Below are positions 45,365 through 64,000 of a DNA stretch of 64,000 nucleotides, one piece after another. Both the position numbers and the translations under genes were made by a program. The notes beneath the pieces were generated by a model. It ran no database searches and was not told the DNA's origin. It was given only the letters and a program-made list of their open reading frames with translations. This DNA comes from a plasmid. Numbering within the stretch: the first letter of the stretch is position 1; each line of letters starts with the position of its first letter. The DNA lies in sequence record NZ_CP041325.1. One strand, given 5' to 3'.

Positions 45365-45378
45365 AGAACAAGTGTTCT
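45365..45378. promoter_or_regulatory. LexA (Cheo) box AGAACAAGTGTTCT
   Basis: Perfect GAAC-N4-GTTC palindrome ~20 bp upstream of the polymerase ATG. Confidence 0.7.
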
Positions 45379-45398
45379 TTTCGGAAGGGGTGAAGGAT

Positions 45399-46655
45399 AT
45401 GGAGAGCCGGGAAGGGGGGGAACGCACGATTGCTTGCCTCGACATGCGCAGTTTTTATGCGAGTTGTGCGGCGGTCGAGGCCGGGATGGATCCGCTGGAA
45501 GCGTATATCGCCGTCGTCGGCAACCAGGAGCGCAAGGGCAGCGTTGTGCTTGCGGCCTCCCCGCGGATGAAGCAGGAGTTCGGGGTCCGTACCGGCACCC
45601 GGCTGTTTGAAATCCCGGGCGACCCGCGGATCCGGCTCCTCGAGCCGAAGATGGGCTTCTTCCTGAAGGTGTCGATGGCCATCACGGACCTATTGGCGGA
45701 GTTTGTGCCGAAGGACTGCATCCACGTCTACAGCGTCGACGAGAGCTTCATCGACTTCACCCGTGTGGAGAGCTTCTGGGGCGGGGCAGAGGCGCTCATT
45801 CGCCACATCCAGGACGCGCTTGTCCGCCAATTCGGGCTGCCGTCTGCGGTCGGGGTGGGGCCGAACATGCTGCTGGCGAAGCTCGCACTCGACCTAGAGG
45901 CGAAGAAGAGCGGCTATGCCGAGTGGACGTATACCGACGTGCCGAAGAAGCTGTGGCCGGTCGCGCCCTTGAGCAAGATGTGGGGCATCGGGTCCCGCAC
46001 TGAACAGACCTTGAATGGCATGGGCATCTTCTCGGTCGGCGACTTAGCCTGCACGGATGTCGCAAAATTGGAAGGTCGCTTCGGCATCATGGGACACCAG
46101 CTCTATCAACATGCCAATGGCATCGACCTGTCGGAGCTCGGCGCGCCGCTCATCGAAGGGCAGGTCAGCTACGGCAAGGGGCAGATCCTCTACCGGGACT
46201 ATACCGAAGTGGAAGACATCCTGACGATCATCCTGGAGATGTGCGAGGACGTCGCGATGCGCGCGCGGCAGGCCGGACGGGCGGGGCGCACGGTCCAGCT
46301 GGGGGTCGGCTACAGCAAGACAGCGTTCGGCGGCGGCTTCTCCCGCTCGCGTTCAATCGAGGAGGCGACGAACGAGACGCTGGCGCTCTACCGGGTCTGC
46401 CAGGAACTGTTCCGGGAACATTACCTCGGCAAACCGGTCCGCCAGATTTCGCTGTCCCTCAGCAACCTGGAGGAAGAGTCATCGATGCAGCTGAGCCTGT
46501 TCGAGGCCCAGAAATGGGAGAACCGCAAGCTCGGGGCGGCGATGGACCAGATCCGGAACCGGTACGGCTATTCGGCGATCTACCGGGCGGTGTCCGGGAC
46601 CGAAGCTGGAACGGCCATTGCCCGGACACGCTTGATTGGCGGGCATCAGAAATAA
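45399..46655 (+). CDS. Y-family DNA polymerase (DinB/UmuC-like translesion polymerase)
   Basis: 'IACLDMRSFYASCAA...VYSVDESFIDFT' is the Y-family palm. The ORF-track start at 45372 overlaps the LexA box, so the Met at 45399 is preferred. ~62% GC. Confidence 0.85.
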   Translation: MESREGGERTIACLDMRSFYASCAAVEAGMDPLEAYIAVVGNQERKGSVVLAASPRMKQEFGVRTGTRLFEIPGDPRIRLLEPKMGFFLKVSMAITDLLAEFVPKDCIHVYSVDESFIDFTRVESFWGGAEALIRHIQDALVRQFGLPSAVGVGPNMLLAKLALDLEAKKSGYAEWTYTDVPKKLWPVAPLSKMWGIGSRTEQTLNGMGIFSVGDLACTDVAKLEGRFGIMGHQLYQHANGIDLSELGAPLIEGQVSYGKGQILYRDYTEVEDILTIILEMCEDVAMRARQAGRAGRTVQLGVGYSKTAFGGGFSRSRSIEEATNETLALYRVCQELFREHYLGKPVRQISLSLSNLEEESSMQLSLFEAQKWENRKLGAAMDQIRNRYGYSAIYRAVSGTEAGTAIARTRLIGGHQK

Positions 46656-48182: not shown

Positions 48183-49787
48183 ATGATGGAGAGCATAAGA
48201 ATAAGAAATTTAAGAAGTTTAAAAGACACAGGGGAGGTTGAACTCAAACCGTTAACTTTATTAGTGGGGAAAAATAGCTCAGGAAAAAGCACCTTTTTAA
48301 GAACCTTCCCATTATTCAAGCAAACTATAGAAACTAAAACTAATGAACCGATTCTTTGGTATAGCAGTAGATACGTTGATTTTGGAAGTTTTCATGAAAG
48401 TCTTAATAAGATAACAGCTAAAGAAGAGGAGGAAAAGAAAAATATTAGTTTTGATTTCAAATTTAGTATCCCAAGTTCAGTTGTACAAATGGGAACTGTT
48501 GATATATTAAGCTACTATTCTTTAAGACCAAGTAGAATGAGTAGAATTTATAATTATAATTACAGCAATAGTAACCGTAAAACACCATTTAAAATAAGCA
48601 TTGAAACGAATCAAAAGTCATTATCTAAATTTACTATTTCTATAGAAGATCATTTACTTGAAATGACTTTAAAAGAAGATGAAAAATTTAGTCAAGTAGG
48701 ACTTAAAATAAACGGAGTACCTATTTCAGAAACTTCTAGTTTAGTAGCTCGATACGCTAAAGATTACTCGCAGTTATTACCTTTAATCTTTAGTGACAAA
48801 AGTAATTCTTCTGAAAATAATTATTTTAGAGATGAGTTATTTAAAATTTTTCAAAGCTTGGCTTATACTTCTACGAGAAGAAATACGATTTCAGAGTTTA
48901 TTGAGGACATAAAGTTTGGTGATAAATCTGAAATTATTAATAATATAAAAAGTCAAGATACTACAGCTAATGTTCTATTAGAAAATTTAAAAGCATTAGA
49001 GTCCGACAATGAGGTAATGCAACAAATTATAATAAATTACATAGGTATGAATATAAATCCTATAATAACAATGTGTAATAATTATATAGAACAGTATTTC
49101 TCTTCAATTAATTACATCGCTCCTATTAGAGCGAGTGCCGAAAGGTATTACAGAATTCAAGGTCTTTCTGTAGATGATATCGATCCACAGGGCGAGAATA
49201 TACCAATGATTTTCAATAATATGAGTGATATTGAAAAAGAAAATTATAACCATTGGTTATTTGGTAATTTTGGATTTCAAATATCAGCAAGCCCTACGGA
49301 AGGACATTCATCAATAAGAATAAAATATAGTAATGGAGAAGAGGTTAACTTAGCAGATACAGGCTTCGGGTATTCTCAGATTCTCCCAATTACTTTAGTT
49401 CTATGGCAGACTTCAAAACAAGAACGAAAAGACATATTTGCATATAGTGGATTATATAAAGCTGATTACAATTTTTTTAATTTAGTGATTGAGCAGCCTG
49501 AACTACATTTGCATCCAGCTATTCAGGCTAAATTAATCGATGCATTTATAAAGATAATTATGCTATGTAAAGAAAAGAGTATTGATATTAAAATTATTAT
49601 CGAAACACATAGTGAAACAATGATTAATAGAATTGGATATATAATAGCAAAAAATATAGAGGAATTTACCGAGGATTTAGTTAAGGTAATTATTTTTGAA
49701 AATGATGAGGTCTTTGATACTAAATTAAATGTAAGTACATATTCGGAAAACGGGTATCTAAAAAAATGGCCTTTAGGTTTTTTTTGA
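48183..49787 (+). CDS. ABC/AAA_21-type ATPase, AriA-like (PARIS-like system component)
   Basis: N-terminal 'IRIRNLRSLKDTGEVELKPLTLLVGKNSSGKST'. C-terminal 'IEQPELHLHPAIQAKLIDAF...IIETHSETMI' (Walker B, D-loop, H-loop). Confidence 0.6.
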   Translation: MMESIRIRNLRSLKDTGEVELKPLTLLVGKNSSGKSTFLRTFPLFKQTIETKTNEPILWYSSRYVDFGSFHESLNKITAKEEEEKKNISFDFKFSIPSSVVQMGTVDILSYYSLRPSRMSRIYNYNYSNSNRKTPFKISIETNQKSLSKFTISIEDHLLEMTLKEDEKFSQVGLKINGVPISETSSLVARYAKDYSQLLPLIFSDKSNSSENNYFRDELFKIFQSLAYTSTRRNTISEFIEDIKFGDKSEIINNIKSQDTTANVLLENLKALESDNEVMQQIIINYIGMNINPIITMCNNYIEQYFSSINYIAPIRASAERYYRIQGLSVDDIDPQGENIPMIFNNMSDIEKENYNHWLFGNFGFQISASPTEGHSSIRIKYSNGEEVNLADTGFGYSQILPITLVLWQTSKQERKDIFAYSGLYKADYNFFNLVIEQPELHLHPAIQAKLIDAFIKIIMLCKEKSIDIKIIIETHSETMINRIGYIIAKNIEEFTEDLVKVIIFENDEVFDTKLNVSTYSENGYLKKWPLGFF

Positions 49788-49802
49788 GCCGGAGGGAATT
49801 TA

Positions 49803-51006
49803 ATGTTATTAAAGATTGATAGTTCATTAGTTGATTATTTAAAAGATAATTCCTCAAAGCCCAATTTAATAAATAACGAAGTTCAGGCTTTAAATAATCT
49901 CTCTATAGCACACAGGGACAAAAAACATATTTTATTTGGATCTTTAGATGTAGTAGAATTTTTAAAAGATTTTAAACCCTTAGATGATACTGCGCTAGGA
50001 ATTTTTAGCAATTTATTTAAAAAGTTTACTTTCATGGGAATATATGAAGAAATGTTTGATAATCAAATATTAATTAAAAGTAGAGAACATAAGTTTTTAA
50101 AGAAGTTTGTTAAAGAGAAAGTAATATTTGAAATTCCTATAACTGATTTTTTTAGATATAGAGAGTATTAGTAGAACTGCACTAATTGGAGAAGACAGTA
50201 CTGACTGTGAATTTTATGAAGGATTAGCAAAACAGTATATTACAGAAAATTATGGGATTTCTGCTATTAATTTAAACTTTCACCATGTGAATGGAGGGGG
50301 AGTAAATACTTGGAAATCCTTGCGTTATTACAGTGAAAATAAAAAAATCTCACTTACTATAACTGATAGTGATAAGCGCTACCCAACTGGTAACGTAGGA
50401 GAGACTTTAAGAAAATTGAGGACTGAATATAATAAACATAAAAATAATACGATAACAGATTTAGTGGAGTTAAAAGTAAGAGAAAAAGAAAATTTAATTC
50501 CTCCTTCAGTTTATTTGTATTGCTGCAACAGTTCTGATAAAAGTAGATTGGAAAACTTCATGTTATTAGAGGATTCTAATAAGCATTCCGAAAAATTATT
50601 TTATTTAGATTATAAAGAAGGGTTAAACGTTAAGAGCTATAAACGAGATTCTCAATTGCAAGGATATATAGAAGAAATGGTGAAAGATTTTCCGCACTTA
50701 GCCACTTGTAGTTTGGAAGATATAGATTCCTTATCTGACGATTATCGTATTATTGAAGGTATAAGTATGAATGTTTCAGATTATTTTAGTGTAGGAGTTT
50801 TTTACGAAGGTTTAGAAAAAGAATTAGAAGATAAATTAATGATAGAAAAAATACCAGCAGAAGTTATAGATGATTTGCGTAATAGTATAGACAAAAAAAA
50901 TAAAATGTTTAGACATATGCCAGAAAGCTTTCAAGTTCATTTGGAGGAAATTTGCAAAAAGCTTATTGATTGGGGATGTGCTAATAGTTCTTTTATTGCG
51001 ACCTAA
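49803..51006 (+). CDS. DUF4435/Toprim-like (OLD-family nuclease-like) protein, AriB-like; one gene split by a T7-run indel at ~50165
   Basis: Removing one T from 'gattttttta' joins the 122-aa and 239-aa ORFs. The junction then reads 'ALIGEDSTDCEFYEGL' (Toprim Glu motif), followed by 'LTITDSDKRYP' (DxD motif). Confidence 0.5.
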
Positions 51007-51364
51007 ATACTTTGAAAAAGCATTTAAAAATATTTATGAAAGTATTACTTAAATTGTAAATTGATTTGTCAAGTGTATAGTGATTACGTGAATTTTTTTC
51101 ATAAAAGATGGTTTATAAGAGGCCGAAAAGAAGATTCCAATTTCTTCTCGGCTACTTCTAATTTAGTCTCAAAATTTATATCAAAAGCACTCTATTATAA
51201 TATTGCTTAAGAATGATCCAGCTAAGAAAAGGAAGGACATCGATTCTTATAACGAATCTAATACAGTATCTATATTTAAGTGTTTATACAATAAAGTTAT
51301 TTTTTGCTTAGTCTCGGCTGCGTACTTACTCGAACGAACCCTGGAATCGCAAGCTCGTCCAACT

Positions 51365-54300
51365 TTATCGTAAAAGTATGGTGTGAGTTACTTTATCTAT
51401 GATTTGCTGTGAAATTTCTCGATCGAAATCTGCTATCTCTGGTAATATAGCATTAATATTTGCTAAATCTATTTCTTCAAAGTTCGATATTGCTTCAGCA
51501 ATTATAGTTGATTTCTTGAGTAAAAATAATCTCAATGAATTGGGGTCTTCATTTATTAAGTGGAAAATAAGAATATGCAGAGCTTGCCATTCTAATCGAT
51601 CTTTTGAGTAAGAATCTCTATGCATAGGAATATCAAAATCATTTTCTATATAATACTTAACTAGCGAAGGAGAAAAAGCGAACTGATAAAGGTTTATTTT
51701 CTCAAATTTCTCTTTATTACTGTAAAGAAAATTATCAATTATTCGAACGTGCTTTTTATCAAGATACAAAAAGAGGAACTCAAGTATTTCACTATGAAAG
51801 CTCGCCCAAACATTATGCTCATCAAATTTAGTTTTTATTCGGGTTAAATCTATAGCTTTAATAAGCTCAGAGTATTTACCTGAATCAAACTTTCTCAGAA
51901 TCTTATAGAAACTAGATAAGTTGTGCCAACTGCGAAAGGGAACTGTTACTAATTCTTCAGCCAATTGCTTGGGTTCAATAAAACTAATGATTTTTTCACC
52001 AATGACTCTTTGATCTTTTTTAATATAATCTCTTTTTTCGCTTAAAGAGTTGAATCCCATTACTATTGCTAAAAATTTGAAATCTAGCATATGCCAAGCG
52101 TTAATTGAATGTTGTTTAAATGCATTGCGGAAATTGTCAGACATCACGTGAAATAATTTAATGCCATAAAGTCTGTCGTAGTTAAAAATGTTCCCAATGA
52201 AATCAACTAAGTCTTCGAAATCTAACTGGTTATTTTCCAATAAAAGTAGTTCTGTTTCAATCTGGTTTTTGTCTAAAAGCTTGAAAAATTCCTTTGCTCT
52301 TTCAATTGATAAAAGAAGACCTAACCTAGAAATAAAATAACTCCAGTGATATAAATCTTCTTTCTTTAAATTAGAAAATCTATTAGCAATTTCAGTTATA
52401 TTTAAGTTGTTACCAAAATCTTTTGCTTTAATTCTATCCGAATTATACATATCATTTATTATAGTGCCCAATGAATAAGCCGTTATACTATTTACATTTT
52501 CAATTTCTTTATGAATTGTTGAAGAAAAATGATATATATCAAAATACTCGGTTTTACTAAACTTTGTAAAAGTATTGGCGAAGTATAAAGCATGAGTAGT
52601 GAGAGTTTTTTTCTTCTGACGACAAGCTTTCTTCAATGATATGGTAAACTTCGTCTTTCGAAATAATATAAGGCATTCTAAAATGCAGTTCACTAGTGAA
52701 AATTGTATTCATAAACCATACTTTTCCTAAAAGCGGATTATTTAGAGATATCATTTCATTGTGTACTATTTGCTCATATTTTTTTCTATTTTCTGTGTCA
52801 TTATCGAATATGAACTTCAATTGTCTTTTAGCTGCTTCATAGTGAATCATTCTAAGGAAGAAACCATCAATTAACCTTTTCTTTCGTAGTGCTTTTAAAT
52901 TTTTATTTAGCCATTCTTCATCTTCAGAAAAGTATTCTTTTACGTTCTGTATTAACCAATTTTCATTTACTGTATTATCTTTGGTTATTATCTGTTTTAG
53001 AGCCAGTAAAAAAATTAATCTTTGTGAGTTGTCTAGATCTTTTGATTTAAAGTAGTTATCTTTAGTAGTTTTCCACCCGCCTCTAATTACATAATTAAAG
53101 GTCCAAAGATTGTCCTCTTTCGAGGCGGCATCTATTCTTTGATCGAACGATTCTTGCAGAAAGTAATTTCCTAAGTCTCCATCTATTTTTGAAATAATAT
53201 GTGAAACTGTTTTTTCATTTTTTCTGTAAAATTCACTAATGCAAGCGATATTCTCATTATTAGAAATTGAAACTGTAGCGGAATCAACTTCTATATCTTC
53301 AGTAACTGTCAAAATGATCTTTTGATAATTACTGCTTTTTTCTTGTAAGATTTGCAAAATCGAACTGGGTAGAATATGTCCATCATCAATGATATATATT
53401 GCTTTAGGATTGCTGGGTAAAGAAAAATTATCGATATCTGTAAAATCATTGGTTTTGAAACGTAAAACTTCATATCCATGTTTTAAAAAATGAAAAGCGA
53501 TTTGGTAACAAGAAATGGATTTACCAGATCCGGGTTTTCCTTGAAGAATAACAAAGTTATTCAACTCTAAAACTTTAATAGCTTTTTTGAACTTGGGGCA
53601 TTTCGGGACAAACGCTCACGTCTTGAGGGGTAAGTTTGTACCCTAAAACGGCTCTTCCAATACTATCATTTTGATTTTTAAAATTTAAGTACTCCCATTT
53701 ATTATAATTATTCTCGTCTATCAAATTTTCAACTAATTCCTCAAAAAATTCCGACGCCGATAAATTAATCACTCTTTCATCAGTTGAAAATGGGGAAACT
53801 CTATAGACTTTCCATTTATCTTCTAAAGGCGAAATCAATTCTTCTACAATTTTTGCATCGCTTTCTGAATAGCCAACGATAACTAGAGTTCTAGGTCTTT
53901 CCATTGCTAGTAGATTAATATGTTTTTGTTCTTCGTCACTTATATTTCCTGGAGAGTTTGGAAGTACCCACTCAGAATTTAAATTTAAGACATCTCCGTG
54001 TGGTTTGATCAAATTTATTTTACTGTCGTTTATTCGGGTACCATATAATTCAGACCATGACATTTCTAATAAGCTATCCCAATTAAAAGAGACAATTAGC
54101 TCAAAAAATTTTCATGAACTAATTTAGCTATATTATTATGTATACGAGGGGCAACGGTTATTTTACTGTTAACCTTGCTAAACTTGCTTTTAAATAAACT
54201 TACCGCATCTTCATTCTGTTCAATATATGAAAACGCCCTTTTGATTTTTTACAAAATCTTCTCCTATTCTACTCTTTGTACTTCCAATGCCTTTAAACTT

Positions 54301-54465
54301 CTGATCGATACTAGGAAAAGAACTTACTACCTCCCAAACAATAGGAGCAAGCTGGTTACCTAGTGGCATTCCAGGTTCAAAGGAAACTCCCGCCCCAATA
54401 ACTACGACAGCATTATTAACTCTTATTTCATTAATTATTGAGGTTAAATTATTAACAGACTTCAT
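51365..54465 (-). CDS. SIR2-like NADase domain fused to a NACHT/STAND-like P-loop NTPase and an α-helical C-terminal domain (~1030 aa after correcting homopolymer frameshifts); bNACHT/Avs5-like candidate
   Basis: SIR2 motifs: 'VVVIGAGVSFEPGMPLGNQL' (54220..54465), 'IVSFNWDSLLE', 'LIKPHGD' and 'LVIVGYSESD' (53575..54063). NTPase: 'ILQGKPGSGKS', 'IYIIDDGHIL', 'KIILTVTED' (52557..53564). Helical 442-aa tail (51365..52693). Junctions lie at T6, A6 and A7 runs. A single nt change at each gives a continuous ORF. Confidence 0.55.
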
Positions 54466-54563
54466 CTCACTTGCTCCTTTTTTTAGTGATACTTTAATTA
54501 TTCCATATAGGGAAAAATAATAAAAACGTTATAAATTAAACTGTTTTATAGGAGTTTCTTCTA

Positions 54564-55182
54564 TTATAAAGGAGTTGCTGTCTCTGCTTCGATTTCTCTC
54601 ACTAATTTATAAAAACTAGTTTTTTTAACTCCAGTTTCTTGCATGGCTTCAACTGCTGTTAATTCTCCAGATTTCCATTTTCTATAAACCTCTTTAAATT
54701 CTTCTGAAACAAGAACAGGAGTCCTGCCAAACTGAATGCCGTTTTTCAACGCTAAGTCGATTCCTTCGCGTTGCCGTTTTCGTATGCGTTCCCGTTCTTC
54801 TTCTGCCATCCAGGAAAGAATCTGCAAAACCAAATCTGCAATGAATGTTCCCATACTATCTTTATACTGCGTCGTATCGAGTAACGGCATATCCAGCACC
54901 ACGATATCCGCTTCGATTTTTTTTCGTCAGGTCATTCCATTCCTGGAGGATCTCTTCTTTGTTCCGGCCAAACCGATCCAGCGAGTGGATATATAAAATG
55001 TCGCCTTTCCGGATAATCCGTTTGAGCAGCTGATAGTTCGCTCGCTCGAAATTCTTACCACTTTGCTTGTCCAAATAAATATCCCGTTCAGTGATGCCCA
55101 TTTTTCTCATTGCTTCCAATTGACGGCCTTCGTTTTGATCTTTGCTGCTGACACGTATGTAGCCAAATTTGCGATGTTCCAT
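54564..55182 (-). CDS. Serine recombinase (resolvase/invertase family), one A8-run frameshift near 54895
   Basis: N-terminal 'GYIRVSSKDQNEGRQL...LYIHSLDRFGRN' catalytic domain. C-terminal HTH 'TAVEAMQETGVKKTSFYKLVRE'. Confidence 0.8.
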
Positions 55183-55219
55183 AATTCACCTCGAAAACGA
55201 TTGTTTCCTCTCATTATAC

Positions 55220-55355
55220 CTGAAAAGCGTTCGTAAAAGTGTCTGCAATTTCGCGAACGTTCGTAAAGTCATTTGACACGTTTACGAACGCTGTTTTAGC
55301 CGTTTAGCCCTTTTCAAAGCGTTCGTAAAAGTGTACTTTTACGAACGCTTTAAAA
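55220..55355. promoter_or_regulatory. res-like recombinase binding region: five copies of GCGTTCGTAAA(A)GT in direct and inverted orientation
   Basis: 55224 AAAGCGTTCGTAAAAGTG; 55253 GCGAACGTTCGTAAAGTC; 55278 (inverted) CACGTTTACGAACGCTG; 55316 CAAAGCGTTCGTAAAAGTG; 55336 (inverted) CTTTTACGAACGCTTT. Immediately 5' of the recombinase gene. Confidence 0.6.
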
Positions 55356-55665
55356 AGTATAGTGGCATGTATAAAAAGGGAATAAAGGAGAATTCGGCGA
55401 ATTACCTGTTTAAGGAAATAAACCAATTGTTAAAGAAGACAACTAGGGGCGAGGGGAGTGATTCGTTTTATTCGATATGAAGAGGATCAAATGTATTTAG
55501 AATTCACAGAAATAGAACCGGCTGTAAGTTTAACGGAATTTGTAAAATATCTATAAGATGAAGAAATCACAAGACGAAAGGATGCCTTGGCGATGGCTTT
55601 CAAAAAGCAAAAAACAGAAAGAAATCCAGGCAGTCTTCCGAACTTTGCTCGCCTGAAATCATGAA

Positions 55666-56094
55666 TTGAAAAATTTGCCGAAAGGATGTGATGATATGAC
55701 GATTAACGTATTTATCAGCTATGACTACACCAGCGATAAAGAGTATGCATCCTTATTAAAAGCTTGGGCTGAAAACGATGCCGAACATTTTAAGAACATT
55801 AATTTTATTGATGGTTCTAGCGATTTTTCAAGAGAATCTACTAAAGTGAACGCCTTCAAAAATTCAATTTCAAGAAGAATGAATGCGTGTGATAAAATAC
55901 TTGTTTTAGTTGGAAAAGAAACCTACAAAAGTGATTGGTGTAAATGGGAGATCAAGAAAGCTGAAGAACTTGAGCTTGATTTTGCAGCAGTTAACATTGA
56001 ACATGCAAATGCATCTCCCATCAGCTTGTACGGAAAAGGAGTAAAAAGGGCGAGAAGTTTTACTGAAGCAGCCATTGAAAGCGTCTTAACGTAA
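55666..56094 (+). CDS. TIR-domain protein (ThsB-like/DUF1863-like), ~130 aa
   Basis: 'INVFISYDYTSDKEY' βA motif and 'KSDWCKWEIKKAEE' (SxWCxxE catalytic-Glu box). Probable start at the Met of MTINVF (55696). Confidence 0.65.
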   Translation: MKNLPKGCDDMTINVFISYDYTSDKEYASLLKAWAENDAEHFKNINFIDGSSDFSRESTKVNAFKNSISRRMNACDKILVLVGKETYKSDWCKWEIKKAEELELDFAAVNIEHANASPISLYGKGVKRARSFTEAAIESVLT

Positions 56095-56260
56095 GATCAA
56101 ATCAACATGTGGATGTTTATAAGCTTTTACCTTTTCGAGGGTTTAACTTAAGCTAGGCAGTTTCTTTTGTAGTTAGAATTTTAATAGGTTTACATATCTT
56201 CACTTATAGGAAGCAGCAACCTAAATTAATCTTCAATTGGCGTTGCTACAGTTACATGTA

Positions 56261-56296
56261 AAACAGACAGCCGACTTGCTCAGGCTGTCTGTTTTT
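56261..56296 (+). terminator. Rho-independent terminator
   Basis: CAGACAGCC-N10-GGCTGTCTG followed by TTTTTG. Confidence 0.7.
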
Positions 56297-56583
56297 GTAA
56301 CTCTAGAGATAGACTTTGTGGCTCAGTTTTAATGATTACTGGACAAACTGCTTACCGATTCGCACCTATAATAATGAAGTGTATTGAAAATAATAGTTAA
56401 TTATTTAAAAATTTAATTATTTAATAGAAAAAGTTTTATTTCTTGCTATACTAAAAGCTAAAAGAAGAGATACATGGGGCAGAGAAACGGGGAGTGAGAA
56501 TGCTTTTGAAATCAAAACACTTTAAAGAAATTATTAATCTACAAGTATTTTTAATACATCCTTTTCAAGGGAGTGAAGAAGTA

Positions 56584-56718
56584 TGGAGAACTTTTTAATT
56601 CTATTTTCTCCTTACCTCATTGGCTTAGCGCTATGCTTAGGAATCAGCTCGCTTATCGCAAGTATTTTAGAAAATAAGAAAAACACTAATTCAAGTAGAA
56701 AGAGGATATCATTATAAA
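56584..56718 (+). CDS. Candidate 44-aa single-TM small protein (MENFLILFSPYLIGLALCLGISSLIASILENKKNTNSSRKRISL)
   Basis: GGGAGTGAAGAAG RBS. Hydrophobic helix plus a basic tail, which is type I toxin-like architecture. Not in the ORF track (<60 aa). Confidence 0.3.
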
Positions 56719-56831
56719 CTACCTCTTTGATAAGAAGAACCGCGGAGAGAACGGGCAAACAATCATTAACGGAAATATTGGTTGAGTTGTATATTTGTTT
56801 GTCCGACTATCGCCTTGTGCTTTTGATCCGT

Positions 56832-57239
56832 TTATTTACTCACTAACTCTTCAATGTATTCATAAGCAATTGCTTCATCTTCTGACTTGTAGAAAAACCC
56901 CTTGTACGTCATTGTATCCCTTGAATTGATGGTGAGGTCCTGGATTACTTCGCCTTTCTCGTCGAAAAAGACGGCGCGATAACTAAATGCGATATCCCCG
57001 ATTGAGGGTGCCCCTTTTTGAAAAATGGTTTTGTTCAGATTGCTGACCAGATGATTAATCTCGCTTTCTTCGGTAATCTCCAGTAATTTTATTGAGTTCT
57101 CATCTGAAACAGCTATTTTGGAAACCTTTGCTGGCTCGATGCTTACAACTTTATGAGGGGCATAGGACCACGCAAAAGCCAACAGCAATAAGAATGGAAC
57201 CGCTAGTACAACCCATTTGATCCACTTTCTTTTATTCAT
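56832..57239 (-). CDS. Membrane-anchored hypothetical protein
   Basis: N-terminal TM 'WVVLAVPFLLLLAFAW'. Confidence 0.45.
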   Translation of the reverse strand: MNKRKWIKWVVLAVPFLLLLAFAWSYAPHKVVSIEPAKVSKIAVSDENSIKLLEITEESEINHLVSNLNKTIFQKGAPSIGDIAFSYRAVFFDEKGEVIQDLTINSRDTMTYKGFFYKSEDEAIAYEYIEELVSK

Positions 57240-57371
57240 AAGAAAAACCTCCTTGACGGATAGAGAGCGCTATAAATGTCAGCTGCCGCTTCTTAATCAC
57301 TTCCTAGCATTCGAATGGAAAGTAAGGAAAAAAGTAAACATTGCCGGTTGTTCAAAGGAATCGTGCAGAAT

Positions 57372-57930
57372 TCAGCAGCTAGCTTCATATAGGTCCGTTT
57401 CGGGTTTGGGGCAATAGGTTGCTTCGCTGGGCGGAAGATTTAAAGCAGTGGTGAAACGCTGGATCGGTCCAGGCCAATCAGTTTTCCAGATTTCCGAGTA
57501 GTGGTGGTTCGTATACGCAGCGATGACGTTTCGCCAAAATTTCTGTGCAGGAAGATTGGTTTCCAACTCCGCCACTTCCCATGTTCCAGGATAGAGATCA
57601 AACAAATACCAGGCAGCCTGTTTGCCGATGCCTTCCTTCCGGTATTTTCTCAGGATGAAAAATTCGCAGATTTTGTAATAGGAGGAGGTCTGGAGCTCCG
57701 CCGAAGTGATTTCTCGTACCAAGGCGAATCCTGCCAGTTTTCCGTCCACTTTGATCAGAAATGGGAAGTGGCCAGGAACCGCCCAGTAATAGTCCAGATA
57801 CTTGTATCCATATGAGCCTTCTTAGTTTACATCTTCCGATTCGAATTCAGTGAACTCGTACTGGTACAACTCCAGCAAGTTGCGCAAAACATTCCGTTGT
57901 TCGATCGTTGGCTGCAAGATTTCTAGTTTC
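57372..57930 (-). CDS. GNAT-family N-acetyltransferase, frameshifted near 57750
   Basis: 'ICEFFILRKYRKEGIGKQAAWYLF' acetyl-CoA binding motif. N-terminus in another frame. Confidence 0.6.
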
Positions 57931-58327
57931 ATCATACGTCCTCCGTTCTAGTTATATACTCTTTTTTCTTTTTTACTACTGGTAGACTCGTTTGCCATTC
58001 CGGTTCTCAAAGAAAAATAGATACTTTTTTCTAGAAAACCTTCCCCGATGTTCGTTCAGTGAATGAAGTACGGCCAGCGGTAACGCCGGCAAAATCGCTC
58101 CCTGTATGCGAATTTTATTGTTCTCTTTTATTAAAGAAAGTTCAAGCTGGTCAGACCCAAAGAGATTCCAGTGCTTAAATATATCCCCACTATAAAGAAA
58201 GAAAGTGAAATCCAGATGAAAAAACAAGAAAAGGGGAAGAAATGCTTTATTTTCTTCCCCTTTTCTTATTTTTTTTTTACTAGTATCCCTGCTATTTTAA
58301 CTAAGAAATGCCGAAAAAGTGATCCAC

Positions 58328-58990
58328 TCAAGGCTTAAAAGCTCTGTATGCCCTCAATGTTCCGACAATCGTCGAAAACTGCCTTGTCTCTTCAATGGCC
58401 ACAAAACCGGTTTCCTTAAGCAAATCCGGGATGATGCCTTGAACATGCGGTGAAGTGGTTTCAAATCCGTCCATGAATTGGACAGGGAGAAAGGCCACGC
58501 GCATCAGCGCGTTTTGTGGCTTCTCGAAATCCAGGACATGGAATTGGCCGCCCGTTTTAAGGACCCGGCAAACTTCTTTAAACGTTTCCAGCTTCTTCTC
58601 CACAGTCAGATGATGGATGAACAGACTGGTGAAGACATGATGAAACCGGTTACTAGAAAAAGGGAGCTGTTCCGAAAAGCCTTCCACAAAGTGGATCGAT
58701 TCAGCACGGTTTTTCTTTCATCTTCTTTTTCGCAATAGCCAGGATTTCGGGATCGGCATCGAGTCCCATTACATGCACGCCGGAGTGGGATTGCTGAAGC
58801 AAAAGGGCGAGCGTTCCAGTACCACACGCCAAGTCCATTGTCAGCTCGCCCGGTTGAAGGGCCGCCTGGTTGACCAGATGTATTTTCATCTTTTTTTTCT
58901 TGCATGCCCCGTTCGATTAGCGGGTCATAAAAACGAGTCAGCCAACGGTACTTGAGTGCCGGTATATAAGCTCTTTTCGGAGTTTCCTTC
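58328..58990 (-). CDS. Class I SAM-dependent methyltransferase, frameshifted
   Basis: 'MDLACGTGTLALLL' motif I (58701..58889 frame). C-terminal portion in 58328..58687. Confidence 0.65.
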
Positions 58991-59004
58991 ATAAAAATCG
59001 TCTC

Positions 59005-59709
59005 CTATCGTAGACTGCCCTGGTCAGTAACTTCCACGATGAACGGAAAGGCGAGGACGCCTGTATCAGCGAAGTGGAACTCCGCCCATAATTTGTAAAA
59101 TCCTGCAGACGGAAATCGGACTTGAAATATGGGATGGTCTTTGGATGATGGATGCACATGGATAAATCGCTTTCCTTGCTCGTCCAGCACAACAACATGC
59201 CCCAACGCTCCCAAATACAGCAGAGGGGATTCTCCGTTCAAATCAAAAGACAGCGTAGCCGGTTCGCCGGCCGTCAATTTCGGATGCTGAAAAGTAACGG
59301 TTTTTCCTTGAATTTCTTTGGTCGGACGGTCACTTTTCACAAGCTTGCTGAAATCGTTAGCGATGCTTTCGGTTTCTTCTCCGACCATTAGCAACACTGG
59401 CTCAATGACATAAATTCCTTTGATTGGGCTGATGTCTGCAAAGAGGAAATATCGGCCAGAGGGGAGGTTTACTTTCACTTCAAAATCTCCTGAAATTGTT
59501 TCTATCGGATGAACGTGTAAAAAGGTCTCTAAGTCGGCACTGACGATTATCAAATGTAGACTCTTTTCATGATCCTTTAACAGCTCAACCGTCATGTCTT
59601 TCGCGTCGCGGACTTGAATCAGTATCCGGTCGGAGCGATAGACGGCATTCACATAGACGCTAGGTAGCTTGTAATTCATTTTATGATGCGAATGGTGTTC
59701 ATGCTTCAA
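59005..59709 (-). CDS. Hypothetical protein with a His-rich N-terminus (possible metal-binding)
   Basis: 'MKHEHHSHHKM...'. 234 aa. Confidence 0.4.
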   Translation of the reverse strand: MKHEHHSHHKMNYKLPSVYVNAVYRSDRILIQVRDAKDMTVELLKDHEKSLHLIIVSADLETFLHVHPIETISGDFEVKVNLPSGRYFLFADISPIKGIYVIEPVLLMVGEETESIANDFSKLVKSDRPTKEIQGKTVTFQHPKLTAGEPATLSFDLNGESPLLYLGALGHVVVLDEQGKRFIHVHPSSKDHPIFQVRFPSAGFYKLWAEFHFADTGVLAFPFIVEVTDQGSLR

Positions 59710-59736
59710 ATGAAACGCCTCCTCTTTTAGGTGAGT

Positions 59737-61209
59737 CTATTCGGATTCAATTACAAATTCAATTGTCTCCCGGTCGGAAATCGTCGGAAGTTGATAGGAT
59801 TGCTGGTAGTTTTCATGGCCTTTGCCGGTGATTACAACCCAATCGCCCGTCTTGCTTTCGTTGATTGCTTTTTGAATGGCGACTGTCCGATCCGGAATTA
59901 TGCTTCCCTTTTCATTACCGTAAGTCTCATTTAGTCGTTTTAAGTCGTCCACCATCTCGATTTGCGACACCGTGTTCAGGTCATCCAATGTCAAATGTAC
60001 CGGTCACTCCATTCTGCGCTTATCGACAGCATGGCGCTTCGCTTGCTAGGGTCCCGGTCCCCACGAAAGCCAAAAACATGGATAATCCGTTTGGCGCCCT
60101 GTAATTTTACGGTTTCCAAGCAGTAAGAAACGGCATCCGGTGTATGGGCATAGTCCACCACGACGGTTGAGCCATTGGTTAGTTTGGAAACTTCAAAACG
60201 TCCTTCGACCCCCCTTGAAATGTGGAACGGAATCCAAAAGCTTTTCTTTGGGAATCCCCAGAAGCCGTGAAGTTCCATACGCCATCAAGGTGTTGTACAT
60301 ATTGTGCATGCCGTTCATCGCTGAGTCCATTTGGTACGTTTCGTTCCTTTCCTCCACCAGCATCGTGGAGGTCGTTGGGGTAAAGTAGACAACGCGCAGA
60401 TCGCAGTCAGAGGACCTGCCAATCGCATACACCGATTTCCCTTCCCTTTGCAGGGTTTCCGTAAGCTTTCGCCCCCACACATTATCCGCATTCACCACAG
60501 CGGTTCCGTTCGCTTTCAACTGATGGAACATCAAAAGCTTCGTCTGGAAGTACTCCGCCATGGAGCCGTGGTAATCCAGGTGCTCCGGATGAAGATTGGT
60601 AAACAAGCTGTAATCAAATGTAATACCTGCCAAACGGTGTTGGGCCAATCCGTGAGAAGAGACCTCCATGATGATGACCTCATCGCGGCTGAGGGATAAT
60701 AGCTTGTGCAAAGCCAGCGAACTGGGCGTGGTGTTGGCGCTTTTCGTCTTCTGACCATTGATCACATTTTGGATGGTCCCGATGACAGCACAAGTCATCC
60801 CGTTGTTTTCTAGAAAATGCTGCAGCATGTAACTTGTGGTCGTTTTCCCATTGGTTCCTGTTATGCCAATCATTACTTTCTCTTTGGACGGATGCCCATA
60901 GAAATTCCTCGCCATTATGCCAAGGGCTTTGCGGCTATTCTCCACTTGAAGATAAGGGATGGATAGGCCGGTGATTTCCTGTTCTCCCACGACCACTAAA
61001 GTGCCTTTTTCAATTGCTTGTTCAATATACTGATGGCCATCACTTTTAAAGCCTGCAATGGCGACAAAGACGAATCCTGCCTCGACATCTCTGGAATTAT
61101 CGGCAATGCCTTGGATATCTAACTCTAACGTGCGGGAATTCAACCGATTAATCAAATCAATTTCCTGCAAAAGTTGCCTTATTTTCATTGATTGGGTAAC
61201 CTCTCTCAA
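59737..61209 (-). CDS. murE: UDP-N-acetylmuramoyl-tripeptide ligase MurE, two frameshifts
   Basis: 'IGITGTNGKTTT' P-loop, 'DNVWG', and a C-terminal 'VVVDYAHTPDA...ITGKGHE' spread over three frames. Confidence 0.8.
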
Positions 61210-61459
61210 ACAATTTAAATTCGATTTATTCTATAAGATGGATGTTGAGAAAGTGTGCAGAATTCAAACCAAGCACTCTCATAAGAAAAACTTAATTTTC
61301 TTGTAACACAAATGAAGTCTATCGTTTTCTAGAGGGAACAGTAGCACGGTTTGTTCATTCCAATAAAAACCCGAAATCTTATTGACAAGATTTCGGGTTA
61401 TACCGTTACTATTGGGGACATTTTGGTCTTCCTCTTCCATGTTGATTTTTTTAAAAAAA

Positions 61460-61912
61460 TTATTCCTCGTTCTCCAGCTCTTCAATCAAACTTTTCATTT
61501 TCGCAATTTCTTCGCGCTGCGTCTTGATGATTGTATCAGCCAGCTCTCTTGCTCGTGGGTCTGAAATGTTGGCTCGTTCACTTGTCAGGATGGCGATGGA
61601 ATGATGAGGGATCATTGCTTTCATCCATCCGGTATCCTCTATTAATATTTGGCTGCGGACGAGCCAAAGTGAAAGCGCAAATACTACCGCACTGCCAGCT
61701 AAAATCAACGAATTCACTTTTTTATTCTTGTACATTGGCCACATGAATAACAGCATGACAATGGCCATGACAGAGCCCATAATCAGCGCCATATAGATTC
61801 TTGTTTCACTGAGTGTAATATGTTCGAATTGAAAAACGTTTAAGAACATCAACCAATACATCAAAAAGGTCGAAGTGACAATCATGATTCCAAACTTAAC
61901 GTAACTGTTCAT
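61460..61912 (-). CDS. DUF305-family membrane protein (copper-resistance associated)
   Basis: 'MIPHHSIAILTSE...DPRARELADTIIKTQREEI'. Confidence 0.65.
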   Translation of the reverse strand: MNSYVKFGIMIVTSTFLMYWLMFLNVFQFEHITLSETRIYMALIMGSVMAIVMLLFMWPMYKNKKVNSLILAGSAVVFALSLWLVRSQILIEDTGWMKAMIPHHSIAILTSERANISDPRARELADTIIKTQREEIAKMKSLIEELENEE

Positions 61913-62201
61913 AAAATCCTCTCCTTATAGTAAAAGATTGATTTTTACAAGAATGCCTGAACGGGATCGATGCCTTTCTTATCTGTTTACCATTTAAATT
62001 CCCATATAAACTCCATAGAAAATGCATAATTTACTGTAGAAGAAAGAATTACAACGAATTTTATCGTCACTCCATGCAATTTTCGTCTGAAATATAAAGA
62101 AGCCGGCCAATCACCCTCAGATTAGCCGGCATCCTGCATATTTTCTGGTTTTGCATGATCGTCAGCACTTGGGAATCGGAGAAGCTACAGCTTAAGCTGG
62201 G

Positions 62202-62789
62202 TTATTTGGCTGATAATTCAGCTTCAGTTACCCATTTATGATTGGTGACCGGTTCGCCGCCAGTCGTCGGCGTGAAATCAACCATGTAGACAGTTGTTTC
62301 CTCGGCAGTATCAATCGTAGCTGTGGCACCGTCCATTCCTTCCATGTGATCGGCAGCGATTGTTGCTTCATCACCTGGTTTCAACGGTTGGTCTCCTGGA
62401 TTTTCAAGTTCTTCGTGGATGACCCATTTGTGGTTTTCCACCGGTTCGCCGCCATTGGTCGGAGTGTAAGTGACGGCATAAACAGTCGTATCGTAAGCTC
62501 CAACAATCGTAGCTTCCGCGCCTTTCATCCCTTCCATATGATCCGTTTCAATGATGGCTTGGCTTCCTACCTCATAGGTTGGACTTTCCGCTTCCTGTAA
62601 ATCTGCTGGTACTTCTCCTGAACCGGAATGGTCCATATTCATATGCCCCGAATCCTCGCTCATGTTTTCTTCGGTTGCATTATTCATATCCATTGATTCT
62701 TCACTCGTCTCGCTATCTGTATTGCAGGCGCTTAACGTGACGGCGACTACAAGTGACAGTATCCCCATCATCCATTTGTTTTTCGGCAT
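62202..62789 (-). CDS. YdhK-family lipoprotein (tandem DUF1541 domains)
   Basis: Lipobox 'LSAC'. Duplicated 'DHMEGM.GA.ATI...TVY.V.(Y/F)TPT.GGEPV.NHKWV' modules. Confidence 0.7.
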   Translation of the reverse strand: MPKNKWMMGILSLVVAVTLSACNTDSETSEESMDMNNATEENMSEDSGHMNMDHSGSGEVPADLQEAESPTYEVGSQAIIETDHMEGMKGAEATIVGAYDTTVYAVTYTPTNGGEPVENHKWVIHEELENPGDQPLKPGDEATIAADHMEGMDGATATIDTAEETTVYMVDFTPTTGGEPVTNHKWVTEAELSAK

Positions 62790-63029
62790 TGCGATCTCCT
62801 TCTTTCTACATTTGTCTTTAGATACTTTACCCCTTAACTTTGCATATTGTGTGCAGGAACCATGACATTTTCTTGTGCAAATGGTCTGGGCAGTGGATTA
62901 TGGCAAGTTCGTGAACCACTAAGGGAAGTTCTCTATTCTATAGAAGAAACTGCACAAAAATCGAAACTTATTTAGTAAACTGGTGGAGAAGAACATTTTC
63001 TAGAAAGAAAGAGCTGGAGGAATAGAGAA

Positions 63030-63900
63030 ATGAAGATGAAAAGAAAAGCGATCGGTGCACTGTTGGCGGTAATTATGTTGGCCGGCTGCAGCGGAGAGGA
63101 TACGGGCTCTTTGAGGCCCCGTACGATGGAGAAATGAATCATGTCCATGGAATGGGCTATGCGGGAAATGACAAAGGCTTGTATTTTGCGTCACACATTG
63201 GATTGAAAATCTACCGGGACGGTGAGTGGTTCGAAACAACGGATAATTTCCATGATTACATGGGGTTCAATGCGACAGATGACGGTTTTATTACGTCTGG
63301 CCACCCGAGCGCAGATTCTGAGTTACCCAATCCGCTTGGAATTCAGCGCAGTGTGGACGGTGGAGAAACCCTTGAAGAAATTGCGTTCCAGGGAGAGACG
63401 GATTTTCATGCCATGGCTGTCGGTTACAATAGCCATGACCTCTTTTTGATTAATCCGGCTCCCAATTCCTTGCTGGAAGCAGGCGTTTATAGAAGCACGA
63501 AAAAGGGGAGTCGTGGCAACCTGTAAAAGCTGAAGGACTGGAAGGCGAAGTGACAGGACTGGCTCTTCACCCGACAGATTCAGCTTTTGTGGCGGCGGCT
63601 ACTTCGACAGGCATTTATTTCTCGGAAGATGCAGGAGAATCGTTCCAAGCCCTTACGGCTGAAGGAGAAAGAGGGACCGCGGTGCATTTCACCGAGCAAG
63701 GGCTGTACTTCGGGAGCTTCGGGACAGCGGCGGCTTTGATGCAGTATACTGGTGAAAATGAGGCGTTGAAAAGACTGAACATACCGGCTCTTCCGGAAGA
63801 CGGCATCGCTTTTATCGCCGTAAATCCGGCGAATGACCAGGAACTGGCTTTTTTACACGCTGCGGGGCGATGCCTACTTCTCTGAAGACGGTACCCAAAG
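63030..63900 (+). CDS. Lipoprotein with BNR/Ycf48-like β-propeller repeats, frameshifted
   Basis: 'MKMKRKAIGALLAVIMLAGCSG' lipobox in frame 63030. Body in ORFs 63134..63526 and 63550..63885. Confidence 0.5.
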
Positions 63901-64000
63901 TTGGAAACCGCTGCTGCAAAACAGCAAAACCCAATAAAATACGTAAACTGGAAAGGGAAATATGTGAATTGAAACTAATGACTCACAGGAAGGGACAGCA

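What the first reader, a model, noticed from the sequence alone, without database searches (positions are those of the whole stretch)
55666..56094. Orphan ThsB-like TIR protein next to a SIR2 protein that lacks a SLOG domain: a possible Thoeris-like variant
In canonical Thoeris, a TIR protein (ThsB) makes a cyclic ADPR-isomer signal sensed by the SLOG domain of ThsA, which activates ThsA's SIR2 NADase. Here a small TIR protein with an intact SxWCxxE catalytic box lies 1.2 kb from a SIR2 protein whose C-terminal partner is a NACHT-like NTPase plus helical domain, not a SLOG. The TIR may be an independent NADase or signalling module, or the helical domain of the SIR2–NTPase may have taken over signal sensing. 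In the second case the wiring would be new. The two genes are divergently oriented around the recombinase and its res-like site.
Basis: inference. Interest (0 to 1): 0.7.

Follow-up and report, generated by a model that had tools for sequence, protein, structure and literature searches.

The report
Orphan Thoeris TIR gene beside unrelated Avs5-like gene
The small TIR gene is real and belongs to the signal-making half of a known two-gene phage-defence system (type VII Thoeris), but it has lost its usual membrane-effector partner, and it sits next to the SIR2–NTPase gene only because a plasmid recombination site joined two unrelated gene blocks.

Summary
Observation confirmed. Window 55696–56094 (+) encodes an intact 132-aa ThsB-type TIR (Pfam PF08937, E=6e-19; WxxWE glutamate present; AF2 model matches solved ThsB structures). 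It lies 1.2 kb from a divergent SIR2–STAND protein with an all-helical C-terminus and no SLOG.

The proposed new Thoeris wiring is not supported.
- Of 47 non-redundant close TIR homologues, 44 sit beside a SLATT/DUF4231 gene and/or a TPR-S protein. These are the type VII/VIII Thoeris arrangements (cADPR signalling; Yirmiya et al. 2025). None has a SIR2–STAND.
- In 84 loci (848 kb) around SIR2–STAND homologues, none carries this TIR family.
- Homology breaks inside the res palindrome at 55310–55357. Planococcus sp. S3-L1 shares res, resolvase and SIR2–STAND (51104–55356, 91%) without the TIR. Contig L007 shares 55320–64000 (99.8%) without that block.

The SIR2–STAND is structurally closest to Avs5, a self-sufficient sensor/NADase. 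Its frameshifts are probably homopolymer sequencing errors.

No SLATT or ThsI-like gene occurs in the 64-kb window, which is a conjugative Planococcus glaciei-type plasmid. The TIR is therefore an orphan ThsB: most likely a relic, possibly working in trans. Ordinary; low interest.

The parts
55696..56094 (+). Orphan thsB-like TIR gene: 132 aa, catalytic E85 in SDWCKWE, stop codon included
   Evidence: Pfam PF08937 E=6e-19 and PADLOC ThsB1. AF2 pLDDT 89.6 with ThsB structures as top hits. The identical protein is NCBI WP_176295216.1, Planococcus glaciei plasmid. It nests in a clade of SLATT-linked TIRs.
55666..55695 (+).
   Evidence: Sequence. Public gene calls start at the ATG.
55358..55665 (+). 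Leader upstream of the TIR with no SLATT remnant. Positions 55430–55619 resemble (~70%) an unannotated spacer upstream of a DUF5348 gene in Planococcus maritimus plasmids.
   Evidence: tblastn and HMM searches for SLATT were negative. blastn hits H36–H38 and their annotation.
55329..56190 (+). TIR cassette shared at 85–89% nucleotide identity with an unrelated contig (L013). There the cassette abuts IS21 and has lost the catalytic motif through a ~80-nt deletion.
55310..55357 (.). res site-I-like palindrome (23-nt arms, 2-nt centre); the junction where homology with other replicons switches
   Evidence: Inverted repeat I1. L007 is collinear only from 55320 rightwards. L068 is collinear only up to 55351/55356. 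Logan contigs break at 55323–55332.
55223..55295 (.). Further res sub-sites: inverted copies of CGTTCGTAAA(AGT)
   Evidence: The motif occurs only here in the 64-kb window.
54564..55182 (-). Serine resolvase, split in this window by a frameshift at the T8 run 54917–54924; an intact 205-aa gene in L068
   Evidence: PF00239 on both pieces. Sequence. L068 gene table.
51365..54465 (-). SIR2–nSTAND3–helical-repeat protein (~1035–1070 aa; Avs5-like single-gene sensor/NADase), read through four homopolymer frameshifts. Not a functional partner of the TIR.
   Evidence: The shared block 51104–55356 with Planococcus sp. S3-L1 lacks the TIR.

Best explanation
The gene at 55696–56094 encodes a ThsB-type signalling TIR. 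It belongs to the lineage that elsewhere forms the two-gene type VII Thoeris system. In that system a ~145-aa SLATT/DUF4231 effector (ThsH) lies directly upstream, and the TIR makes canonical cADPR on phage infection to trigger the membrane effector.

On this conjugative Planococcus glaciei-type plasmid the SLATT partner is missing, so the TIR is an orphan. The TIR lies on an ~0.86-kb cassette whose left edge is a res crossover palindrome.

The adjacent resolvase and SIR2–STAND genes form a separate mobile block. That block occurs without the TIR in another Planococcus, and the TIR cassette occurs without the block on other contigs. The adjacency is therefore a product of resolvase/res recombination in a plasmid accretion zone, not an operon-like wiring.

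The SIR2–STAND is expected to work alone, like Avs5: direct sensing through its helical C-terminus, oligomerisation, then NAD+ depletion.

The orphan TIR could at most make a cADPR-type signal, for which no receiver is encoded within 64 kb. It is most likely a relic of a broken type VII system.

Shown: identity, fold, conserved catalytic Glu, family contexts, block boundaries, absence of partners in the window. Inferred: cADPR chemistry, relic status, the Avs5-like mechanism.
For: - TIR identity.
- Contexts of the TIR family: the closest relatives (65%, 56%, 51% identity) have a SLATT_1/DUF4231 gene ending within ~4 bp of the TIR start.
- Of 47 non-redundant close homologues, 17 are SLATT-linked, 20 are linked to a TPR-S (ThsI-like) gene, 7 have both and 3 have neither.
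- In an NJ tree the window's TIR falls in a clade whose 9 other members all have SLATT.
- Yirmiya et al. (bioRxiv 10.64898/2025.12.03.692087) validated TIR+SLATT as type VII and TIR+CMP-hydrolase/TPR as type VIII Thoeris. Both use canonical cADPR. Their Table S2 gene IDs indicate the same SLATT-then-TIR gene order.
- No SLATT or ThsI-like ORF anywhere in the window.
- No SIR2/STAND near TIR homologues, and no TIR of this family near 84 SIR2–STAND homologues.
- Block boundaries fall at the res palindrome.
- SIR2–STAND homologues in Planococcus sp. S3-L1, B. cereus and Peribacillus are solitary genes.
- The AF2 model of the SIR2–STAND (pLDDT 90.4) is all-helical after residue ~570. Its top PDB hits are EfAvs5 (9jap, E=5e-11), AVAST5 (9nc9), SAMD9 and DSR2.
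- Avs5 acts as a single protein activated by phage proteins (PMC11897194).
- The L013 copy of the cassette has lost the catalytic motif.
Against: - The TIR ORF is intact, its catalytic Glu is retained, and the identical protein is seen on 11 contigs from several samples. Some function is therefore possible.
- Only 64 kb of the genome was available, so an effector encoded elsewhere cannot be excluded.
- No experimentally validated type VII ThsB sequence could be compared directly. Assignment rests on gene context and domain composition.
- dN/dS against L013 (0.65) mixes in a pseudogene lineage and says little about this copy.
- The leader upstream of the TIR is not a recognisable SLATT remnant. 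The history of partner loss is therefore inferred, not seen.
Confidence: 0.75

Rival explanations
1. The orphan ThsB is functional in trans. It produces cADPR (or another ADPR-derived signal) on infection, and this activates a ThsH/ThsI-type or other effector encoded elsewhere in the P. glaciei genome or on a co-resident plasmid.
For: - The ORF is intact with a conserved catalytic Glu, and the identical protein recurs on 11 contigs.
- NCBI accessions suggest two copies per P. glaciei assembly.
- Yirmiya et al. report islands with several ThsB genes and shared effectors, and report that ThsB alone still makes its signal on infection.
Against: - No SLATT or ThsI-like gene occurs in 64 kb.
- None of the 115 SLATT-family clusters retrieved with the closest ThsH carries a Planococcus name, although only a minority are named.
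- In the family, partners are almost always immediately adjacent.
- A sister copy of the cassette has decayed.
Confidence: 0.15
2. New Thoeris-like wiring: the TIR's product is sensed by the helical C-terminal domain of the SIR2–STAND and switches on its NADase.
For: Physical proximity (1.2 kb, divergent) inside a low-GC defence/mobile island. Both proteins use NAD+ chemistry.
Against: - No co-occurrence in either direction.
- The 93%-identical SIR2–STAND in Planococcus sp. S3-L1 has the same resolvase and res but no TIR.
- The identical TIR occurs without the block.
- The genes are not co-oriented, and a resolvase gene and res site lie between them.
- The C-terminus has no SLOG/SAVED/CARF-like α/β domain.
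- The closest structural relatives, Avs5 and DSR2, sense phage proteins directly.
Confidence: 0.03
3. The TIR is a stand-alone NADase toxin/effector, or a plasmid-borne anti-defence or addiction factor, independent of any signalling partner.
For: - Small stand-alone TIR proteins exist.
- The gene sits on a conjugative plasmid.
- Its leader resembles a spacer that in P. maritimus plasmids lies near JAB and ArdC-like genes.
Against: - The family's relatives are overwhelmingly in type VII/VIII Thoeris operons, not solitary.
- There is no antitoxin-like neighbour.
- The leader shows no unusual single-strand DNA structure (z ≈ −0.6 on both strands), so a leading-region ssDNA promoter is unlikely.
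- There is no Rfam match apart from palindrome artefacts.
Confidence: 0.05

Closest known systems
ThsB of type VII Thoeris (TIR + SLATT effector ThsH; canonical cADPR signal; Yirmiya et al., bioRxiv 2025, doi 10.64898/2025.12.03.692087). The TIR–SLATT association was reportedly predicted earlier by Burroughs et al. 2015; that attribution is from memory.
   Same: - Same Pfam TIR family (PF08937), same small size (~130 aa) and conserved WxxWE glutamate.
- All 9 members of its nearest clade have a SLATT_1/DUF4231 gene immediately upstream.
- That gene order matches the validated B. licheniformis, Pseudohongiella and Alteromonadales systems.
   Different: - No SLATT gene here, and no remnant of one.
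- The gene is preceded by a plasmid spacer and a res site.
- cADPR production was not tested.
- No direct sequence comparison with the validated proteins was possible.
ThsB of type VIII Thoeris (TIR + CMP-hydrolase/TPR effector ThsI; cADPR)
   Same: About half of the wider TIR family (36–47% identity) is followed by a ~410-aa protein with a TPR-S domain (PF20308) and often a second TIR.
   Different: The window's TIR does not fall in those clades, and no ThsI-like gene is present.
Type I Thoeris (ThsB + ThsA SIR2–SLOG)
   Same: ThsB-type TIR fold. A SIR2 NADase domain is encoded nearby.
   Different: The SIR2 protein has a STAND NTPase and helical repeats instead of a SLOG. It does not co-occur with the TIR in other genomes and belongs to a different mobile block.
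Avs5 / AVAST type 5 (SIR2-STAND; EfAvs5, PDB 9jap; 9nc9), for the neighbouring gene
   Same: N-terminal SIR2 with a conserved Asn/His catalytic pair, a P-loop STAND NTPase, a C-terminal sensor, and a single-gene system. EfAvs5 is the best PDB match.
   Different: - About 13% sequence identity, and no PADLOC Avs5 hit.
- The NTPase is Pfam nSTAND3.
- The helical C-terminus is much longer (~500 aa), more like DSR2.
- It occurs in Gram-positive hosts and travels with a resolvase.

Membership tests
ThsB (Thoeris TIR, PF08937) | TIR-like flavodoxin fold matching the ThsB profile | tested here: met
   PF08937 at E=6.1e-19, 68.7 bits against a cut-off of 21.2. AF2 pLDDT 89.6; Foldseek top hits are 8fz9, 9b7d, 8v6t, 8wcf and 6lhy, with query-normalised TM 0.55–0.76 (0.70–0.76 for 8fz9, 8v6t and 8wcf).
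ThsB (Thoeris TIR, PF08937) | Catalytic glutamate in the W-x-x-W-E motif | tested here: met
   E85 in SDWCKWEI is invariant in alignments A2 and A4.
ThsB (Thoeris TIR, PF08937) | Encoded in an operon with a signal-responsive effector | tested here: not met
   No SLATT, ThsI-like or second TIR ORF occurs in the 64-kb window. The PADLOC scan of 65 window ORFs lists only the top 25 of 88 matched families (E ≤ 1e-5), and no ThsA or other Thoeris effector is among them.
ThsB (Thoeris TIR, PF08937) | Phage-triggered synthesis of a cADPR-type signal | not testable with these tools
   Needs LC-MS of infected cells expressing the TIR.
Type VII Thoeris system (ThsB + ThsH) | SLATT/DUF4231 effector gene adjacent to the TIR | tested here: not met
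   Absent here. Present directly upstream in the closest homologues. The TIR is of the type VII lineage, but the locus is not a type VII system.
Type I Thoeris (ThsB + ThsA) | SIR2 effector carrying a SLOG sensor domain | tested here: not met
   In the model, residues 290–570 are a P-loop STAND and 570–1070 are all α-helical, with no β-sheet domain. Pfam finds only nSTAND3/nSTAND5.
Type I Thoeris (ThsB + ThsA) | Conserved co-occurrence of the TIR and the SIR2 gene | tested here: not met
   0 of 67 TIR loci have a SIR2/STAND homologue. 0 of 84 SIR2–STAND loci have this TIR family, and 1 of 84 has an unrelated TIR-like ORF.
Avs5 / SIR2-STAND (neighbouring gene) | N-terminal SIR2 with catalytic Asn/His, plus a Walker A/B STAND NTPase, in one polypeptide | tested here: met
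   GAGxS, SFNWD and KPHGD are conserved, as are GxPGSGKS and IIDD. Homologues are single ~1070-aa proteins. The Foldseek top hit is EfAvs5 at E=4.8e-11.
Avs5 / SIR2-STAND (neighbouring gene) | Sequence-level membership in curated Avs5 models | tested here: not met
   PADLOC gives only weak mad8 and SIR2 hits and no Avs5 hit. phmmer and profile searches of the PDB give no significant hit.

The most novel reading that the evidence does not exclude
The orphan ThsB is kept on the conjugative plasmid because it still does something. One possibility is that it feeds a cADPR-type signal to an effector encoded elsewhere, giving a split Thoeris whose sensor and effector sit on different replicons. Less likely, its product modulates the neighbouring Avs5-like SIR2–STAND.
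Probability: 0.08. Interest if true: 0.55.

Novelty: new member of a known kind. Interest (0 to 1): 0.15.

Why it matters
It matters little beyond correct annotation. The case shows that two NAD+-related defence genes lying next to each other on a plasmid can be an accident of res-site recombination. Block-boundary comparison with related replicons settles this quickly. The locus is an example of an orphaned type VII-lineage ThsB. It also shows a Gram-positive, resolvase-linked SIR2–nSTAND3 protein that current defence-system HMMs (PADLOC v2) do not label, although its predicted structure is closest to Avs5.

Tried and rejected
- SLATT remnant upstream of the TIR. tblastn and a maximum-sensitivity HMM search of all six frames of 55300–55720 gave only noise. 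An apparent by-eye similarity was not supported.
- ThsH/ThsI elsewhere in the window: none.
- SIR2–STAND pseudogenisation as an argument against function. Rejected, because all 13 window-versus-L007 indels are homopolymer errors and 'essential-type' genes (a Mur ligase) are also broken.
- The 80-aa P. glaciei fragment (P0003) as evidence of decay. Rejected as unreliable, because it looks like the same homopolymer-error artefact.
- Leading-region ssDNA promoter or structured RNA in the TIR leader. DNA folding gave z ≈ −0.6 on both strands, and Rfam gave only palindrome-driven miRNA noise.
- Viral contigs for SIR2–STAND relatives: none.
- An alignment that included the truncated P0002 was too gappy for locus finding.
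- Locating the ORFs behind the weak PADLOC LmuA and Avs1a hits: not found among the ten largest ORFs of 1–28 kb; dropped.
- PDB sequence searches for the SIR2–STAND: nothing significant.

Full report
**1. What is in the sequence**

The flagged ORF (55666–56094, +) is present. Its likely start is the ATG at 55696, preceded by AAAGGA, which gives 132 aa. Gene calls on public contigs that carry the identical protein use that start. So does the identical NCBI entry WP_176295216.1, 'TIR domain-containing protein, Planococcus glaciei (plasmid)'.

The protein matches Pfam PF08937 (ThsB_TIR) at E=6.1e-19 over profile positions 1–98 of 100. It also matches several PADLOC ThsB1 models (best 6e-15) and the candidate family PDC-M50B. 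An AlphaFold2 model has pLDDT 89.6 and pTM 0.86. It shows a five-stranded α/β fold whose best PDB matches are a B. cereus TIR protein (8fz9), the ThsB–Tad3 complex (9b7d), EcThsB2 (8v6t), EcThsB (8wcf) and ThsB (6lhy).

**2. The neighbour**

On the minus strand, 51365–54465 reads as four ORF pieces. Two frameshifts lie within the SIR2 part, one at the SIR2/NTPase junction and one inside the helical part. They sit at or near homopolymer runs. The resolvase (54564–55182) is also split, at a T8 run.

The window is 99.8% identical over 55320–64000 to an ENA metagenome contig (L007). All 13 indels between the two lie in 4–8-nt homopolymers. Genes broken in the window, such as a Mur ligase and a methyltransferase, are intact in L007. 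The frameshifts are therefore most likely sequencing errors.

Read through them, the protein (1035 aa) aligns over 100% of its length with single ~1070-aa proteins. Identity is 93% to Planococcus sp. S3-L1 and 55–79% to other Bacillales. Across 44 homologues the following are conserved: GAGxS, SFNWD and KPHGD (SIR2-type NAD pocket with Asn/His), and GxPGSGKS and IIDD (Walker A/B).

Pfam sees only nSTAND3/nSTAND5. PADLOC has no Avs5 hit, and PDB sequence searches are not significant. The AF2 model of the 93% homologue is confident (pLDDT 90.4). Residues ~1–280 are SIR2-like α/β, ~290–570 are a P-loop NTPase with winged-helix-type modules, and ~570–1070 are exclusively α-helices.

Foldseek against the PDB ranks EfAvs5 'SIR2-STAND' first (9jap_A, E=4.8e-11). 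Next come the AVAST5 filament (9nc9), human SAMD9 and DSR2. ThsA is hit only through its SIR2 domain.

**3. Who the TIR travels with**

The closest homologues are from Guptibacillus spartinae (65%), a JGI contig (56%) and Bacillaceae JMAK1 (51%). More distant ones include Staphylococcus plasmids (34–37%). All lie immediately downstream of a ~140-aa gene whose stop overlaps or abuts the TIR start. That gene is SLATT_1/DUF4231 by Pfam.

A scan of GTDB species representatives returned 51 loci. I used home-built HMMs for SLATT, for the ~410-aa TPR-S partner, and for the TIR. Counting 47 non-redundant close homologues (HMM E<1e-30):

| Partner within 3 kb | Homologues |
|---|---|
| SLATT only | 17 |
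| TPR-S partner only (often with a second TIR) | 20 |
| Both | 7 |
| Neither | 3 |

In a neighbour-joining tree the window's TIR sits in a clade whose 9 other members are all SLATT-linked.

These are the architectures that Yirmiya et al. (bioRxiv, Dec 2025) validated. TIR+SLATT is type VII Thoeris (effector ThsH). TIR+CMP-hydrolase/TPR is type VIII (ThsI). Both signal with canonical cADPR. Their Table S2 gene IDs indicate that the SLATT gene is immediately upstream of the TIR in the validated B. licheniformis, Pseudohongiella and Alteromonadales systems.

**4. Co-occurrence test for the proposed wiring**

- No homologue of any piece of the window's SIR2–STAND occurs in the 67 TIR-centred loci, by tblastn and phmmer.
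- I also examined 84 loci (848 kb) centred on SIR2–STAND homologues: 80 from metagenomes plus contexts from Planococcus, B. cereus and Peribacillus. None contains this TIR family, a SLATT or a ThsI-like gene. One has an unrelated TIR-like ORF at E=4e-5.

**5. Block boundaries**

Planococcus sp. S3-L1 (L068) shares window 51104–55351/55356 at 91% identity. This block is res, resolvase and SIR2–STAND in the same order, and homology stops inside the palindrome. Beyond it L068 has unrelated genes and no TIR.

L007 shares 55320–64000 and differs completely to the left. It keeps only a shorter version of the palindrome. Five short Logan contigs break at 55323–55332 or nearby, as expected at a repeated element.

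The palindrome at 55310–55357 has 23-nt arms and a 2-nt centre. Together with the further CGTTCGTAAA repeats at 55223–55295 it looks like a resolvase res site. The motif occurs nowhere else in the window.

A third contig (L013) carries only the ~0.86-kb TIR cassette (window 55329–56190, 85–89% identity), next to an IS21. There a ~80-nt deletion has removed the catalytic WxxWE region.

So the TIR cassette and the resolvase/SIR2–STAND block are inherited independently and meet at a recombination site.

**6. Is a partner present here?**

No SLATT or ThsI-like ORF is detectable in any frame of the 64-kb window. The 340 bp upstream of the TIR contain no SLATT remnant. Part of that leader (55430–55619) resembles (~70%) an unannotated spacer upstream of a DUF5348 gene in Planococcus maritimus plasmids.

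A Pfam scan of the window's ORFs shows RepA_N, a MobA/MobL relaxase, a T4SS coupling protein, TrbL and ParA. The window is therefore a conjugative plasmid. A search with the nearest ThsH returned 115 SLATT clusters across Bacillota. None is named Planococcus, which is weak negative evidence.

**7. Mechanism**

The best-supported reading has three parts.
- The SIR2–STAND is an Avs5-like, self-contained sensor/NADase that moves with its resolvase. By analogy with EfAvs5 it would be activated directly by phage proteins and act by filament-dependent NAD+ hydrolysis (PMC11897194). This part is inferred.
- The TIR is a signalling ThsB of the type VII lineage that has been separated from its SLATT effector.
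- Alone, the TIR may still make cADPR on infection. Yirmiya et al. note that ThsB expressed without its effector accumulates its signal. With no receiver nearby, it is most likely a relic.

Trans action with an effector elsewhere in the genome is the main rival and cannot be tested from this window.

**8. Verdict**

The orphan ThsB identity and the absence of a SLOG are right. The proposed TIR-to-SIR2–STAND wiring is not supported. This is a new member (an orphaned copy) of a known kind and is of low interest.

Noticed in passing
whole window; e.g. 59737–61209 (Mur ligase in 3 pieces), 58328–58992, 35602–36407, 31624–32968, 54917–54924: The assembly carries many single-base homopolymer indels. 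All 13 indels against contig L007 over 8.7 kb are in homopolymers. Many genes therefore appear frameshifted, so apparent pseudogenes in this window should not be trusted.
   Followed up: yes
51365–54465 (−) and homologues P0006–P0049: This is a ~1070-aa SIR2–nSTAND3–helical-repeat family, widespread in Bacillales and in metagenomes. PADLOC v2 does not label it as any defence system, yet its predicted structure is closest to Avs5 (EfAvs5, AVAST5), SAMD9 and DSR2. It may be an unrecognised Gram-positive Avs5-like clade with a long DSR2-like sensor.
   Followed up: partly
51104–55356: The res–resolvase–SIR2-STAND block is shared at 91% with Planococcus sp. S3-L1 and ends exactly at the res palindrome. 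It looks like a defence gene that moves as resolvase-linked cargo.
   Followed up: partly
48183–51006 (+): In the same low-GC (27–30%) island there is a 534-aa AAA_15/AAA_21 ATPase. Its best PADLOC hits are NsnB (1e-45), PDC-M55A and AriA. Two ORFs follow (122 and 239 aa) with no family match. This may be a separate ATPase-based defence module.
   Followed up: no
55430–55619: The leader upstream of the TIR is ~70% identical to an unannotated spacer that precedes DUF5348 and YolD-like genes in three Planococcus plasmids, near JAB and ArdC-like genes. It may be a shared promoter or regulatory region. No special ssDNA or RNA structure was found.
   Followed up: partly
L013:2574–3357 (Logan SRR28911520): A diverged copy of the TIR cassette next to an IS21 has a ~80-nt deletion plus a compensating 1-nt insertion. 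These remove the catalytic WxxWE region while keeping an ORF of 105 aa.
   Followed up: yes
NCBI accessions of the identical TIR: The identical TIR protein carries two accessions from each of two numbering series (QKX52790.1/QKX52892.1, and QDY47013.1 with the 80-aa QDY46929.1). This suggests the cassette is present twice per P. glaciei assembly.
   Followed up: no
L001:7490–10402; L004:3355–6201; L016:7006–9248: Some relatives sit in larger operons: TIR_2 + MAP3K_TRAF_bd/TPR-S + SLATT + TIR; TIR–TIR–TPR-S–TIR; and TIR–SLATT–TIR–TIR. These multi-TIR arrangements combine type VII and type VIII components.
   Followed up: partly
45372–46655 (+): A Y-family polymerase gene (IMS/impB-mucB-samB) sits in a segment of strikingly high GC (0.59, against ~0.27–0.45 around it). 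It is flanked by transposase-like remnants at 47.1–47.7 kb, which points to a mosaic accretion zone.
   Followed up: no
56584–56718 (+): A small ORF encodes a ~44-aa peptide (35 aa in L007) with one predicted hydrophobic helix and a basic tail. It lies downstream of the TIR and is not part of the cassette shared with L013.
   Followed up: no
L101:4705–5853 (−): This is the only TIR-like ORF found near any of the 84 SIR2–STAND homologues. It is ~380 aa, E=4e-5 to a broad TIR HMM, ~2 kb from the SIR2–STAND, and not of the window's TIR family.
   Followed up: no
window ORF set: The PADLOC scan of 65 window ORFs reports single-member hits to LmuA (6e-24), Avs1a (9e-15), DpdH, PDC-M48B and mad3. 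The ORFs responsible were not identified. They are not among the ten largest ORFs of 1–28 kb.
   Followed up: partly
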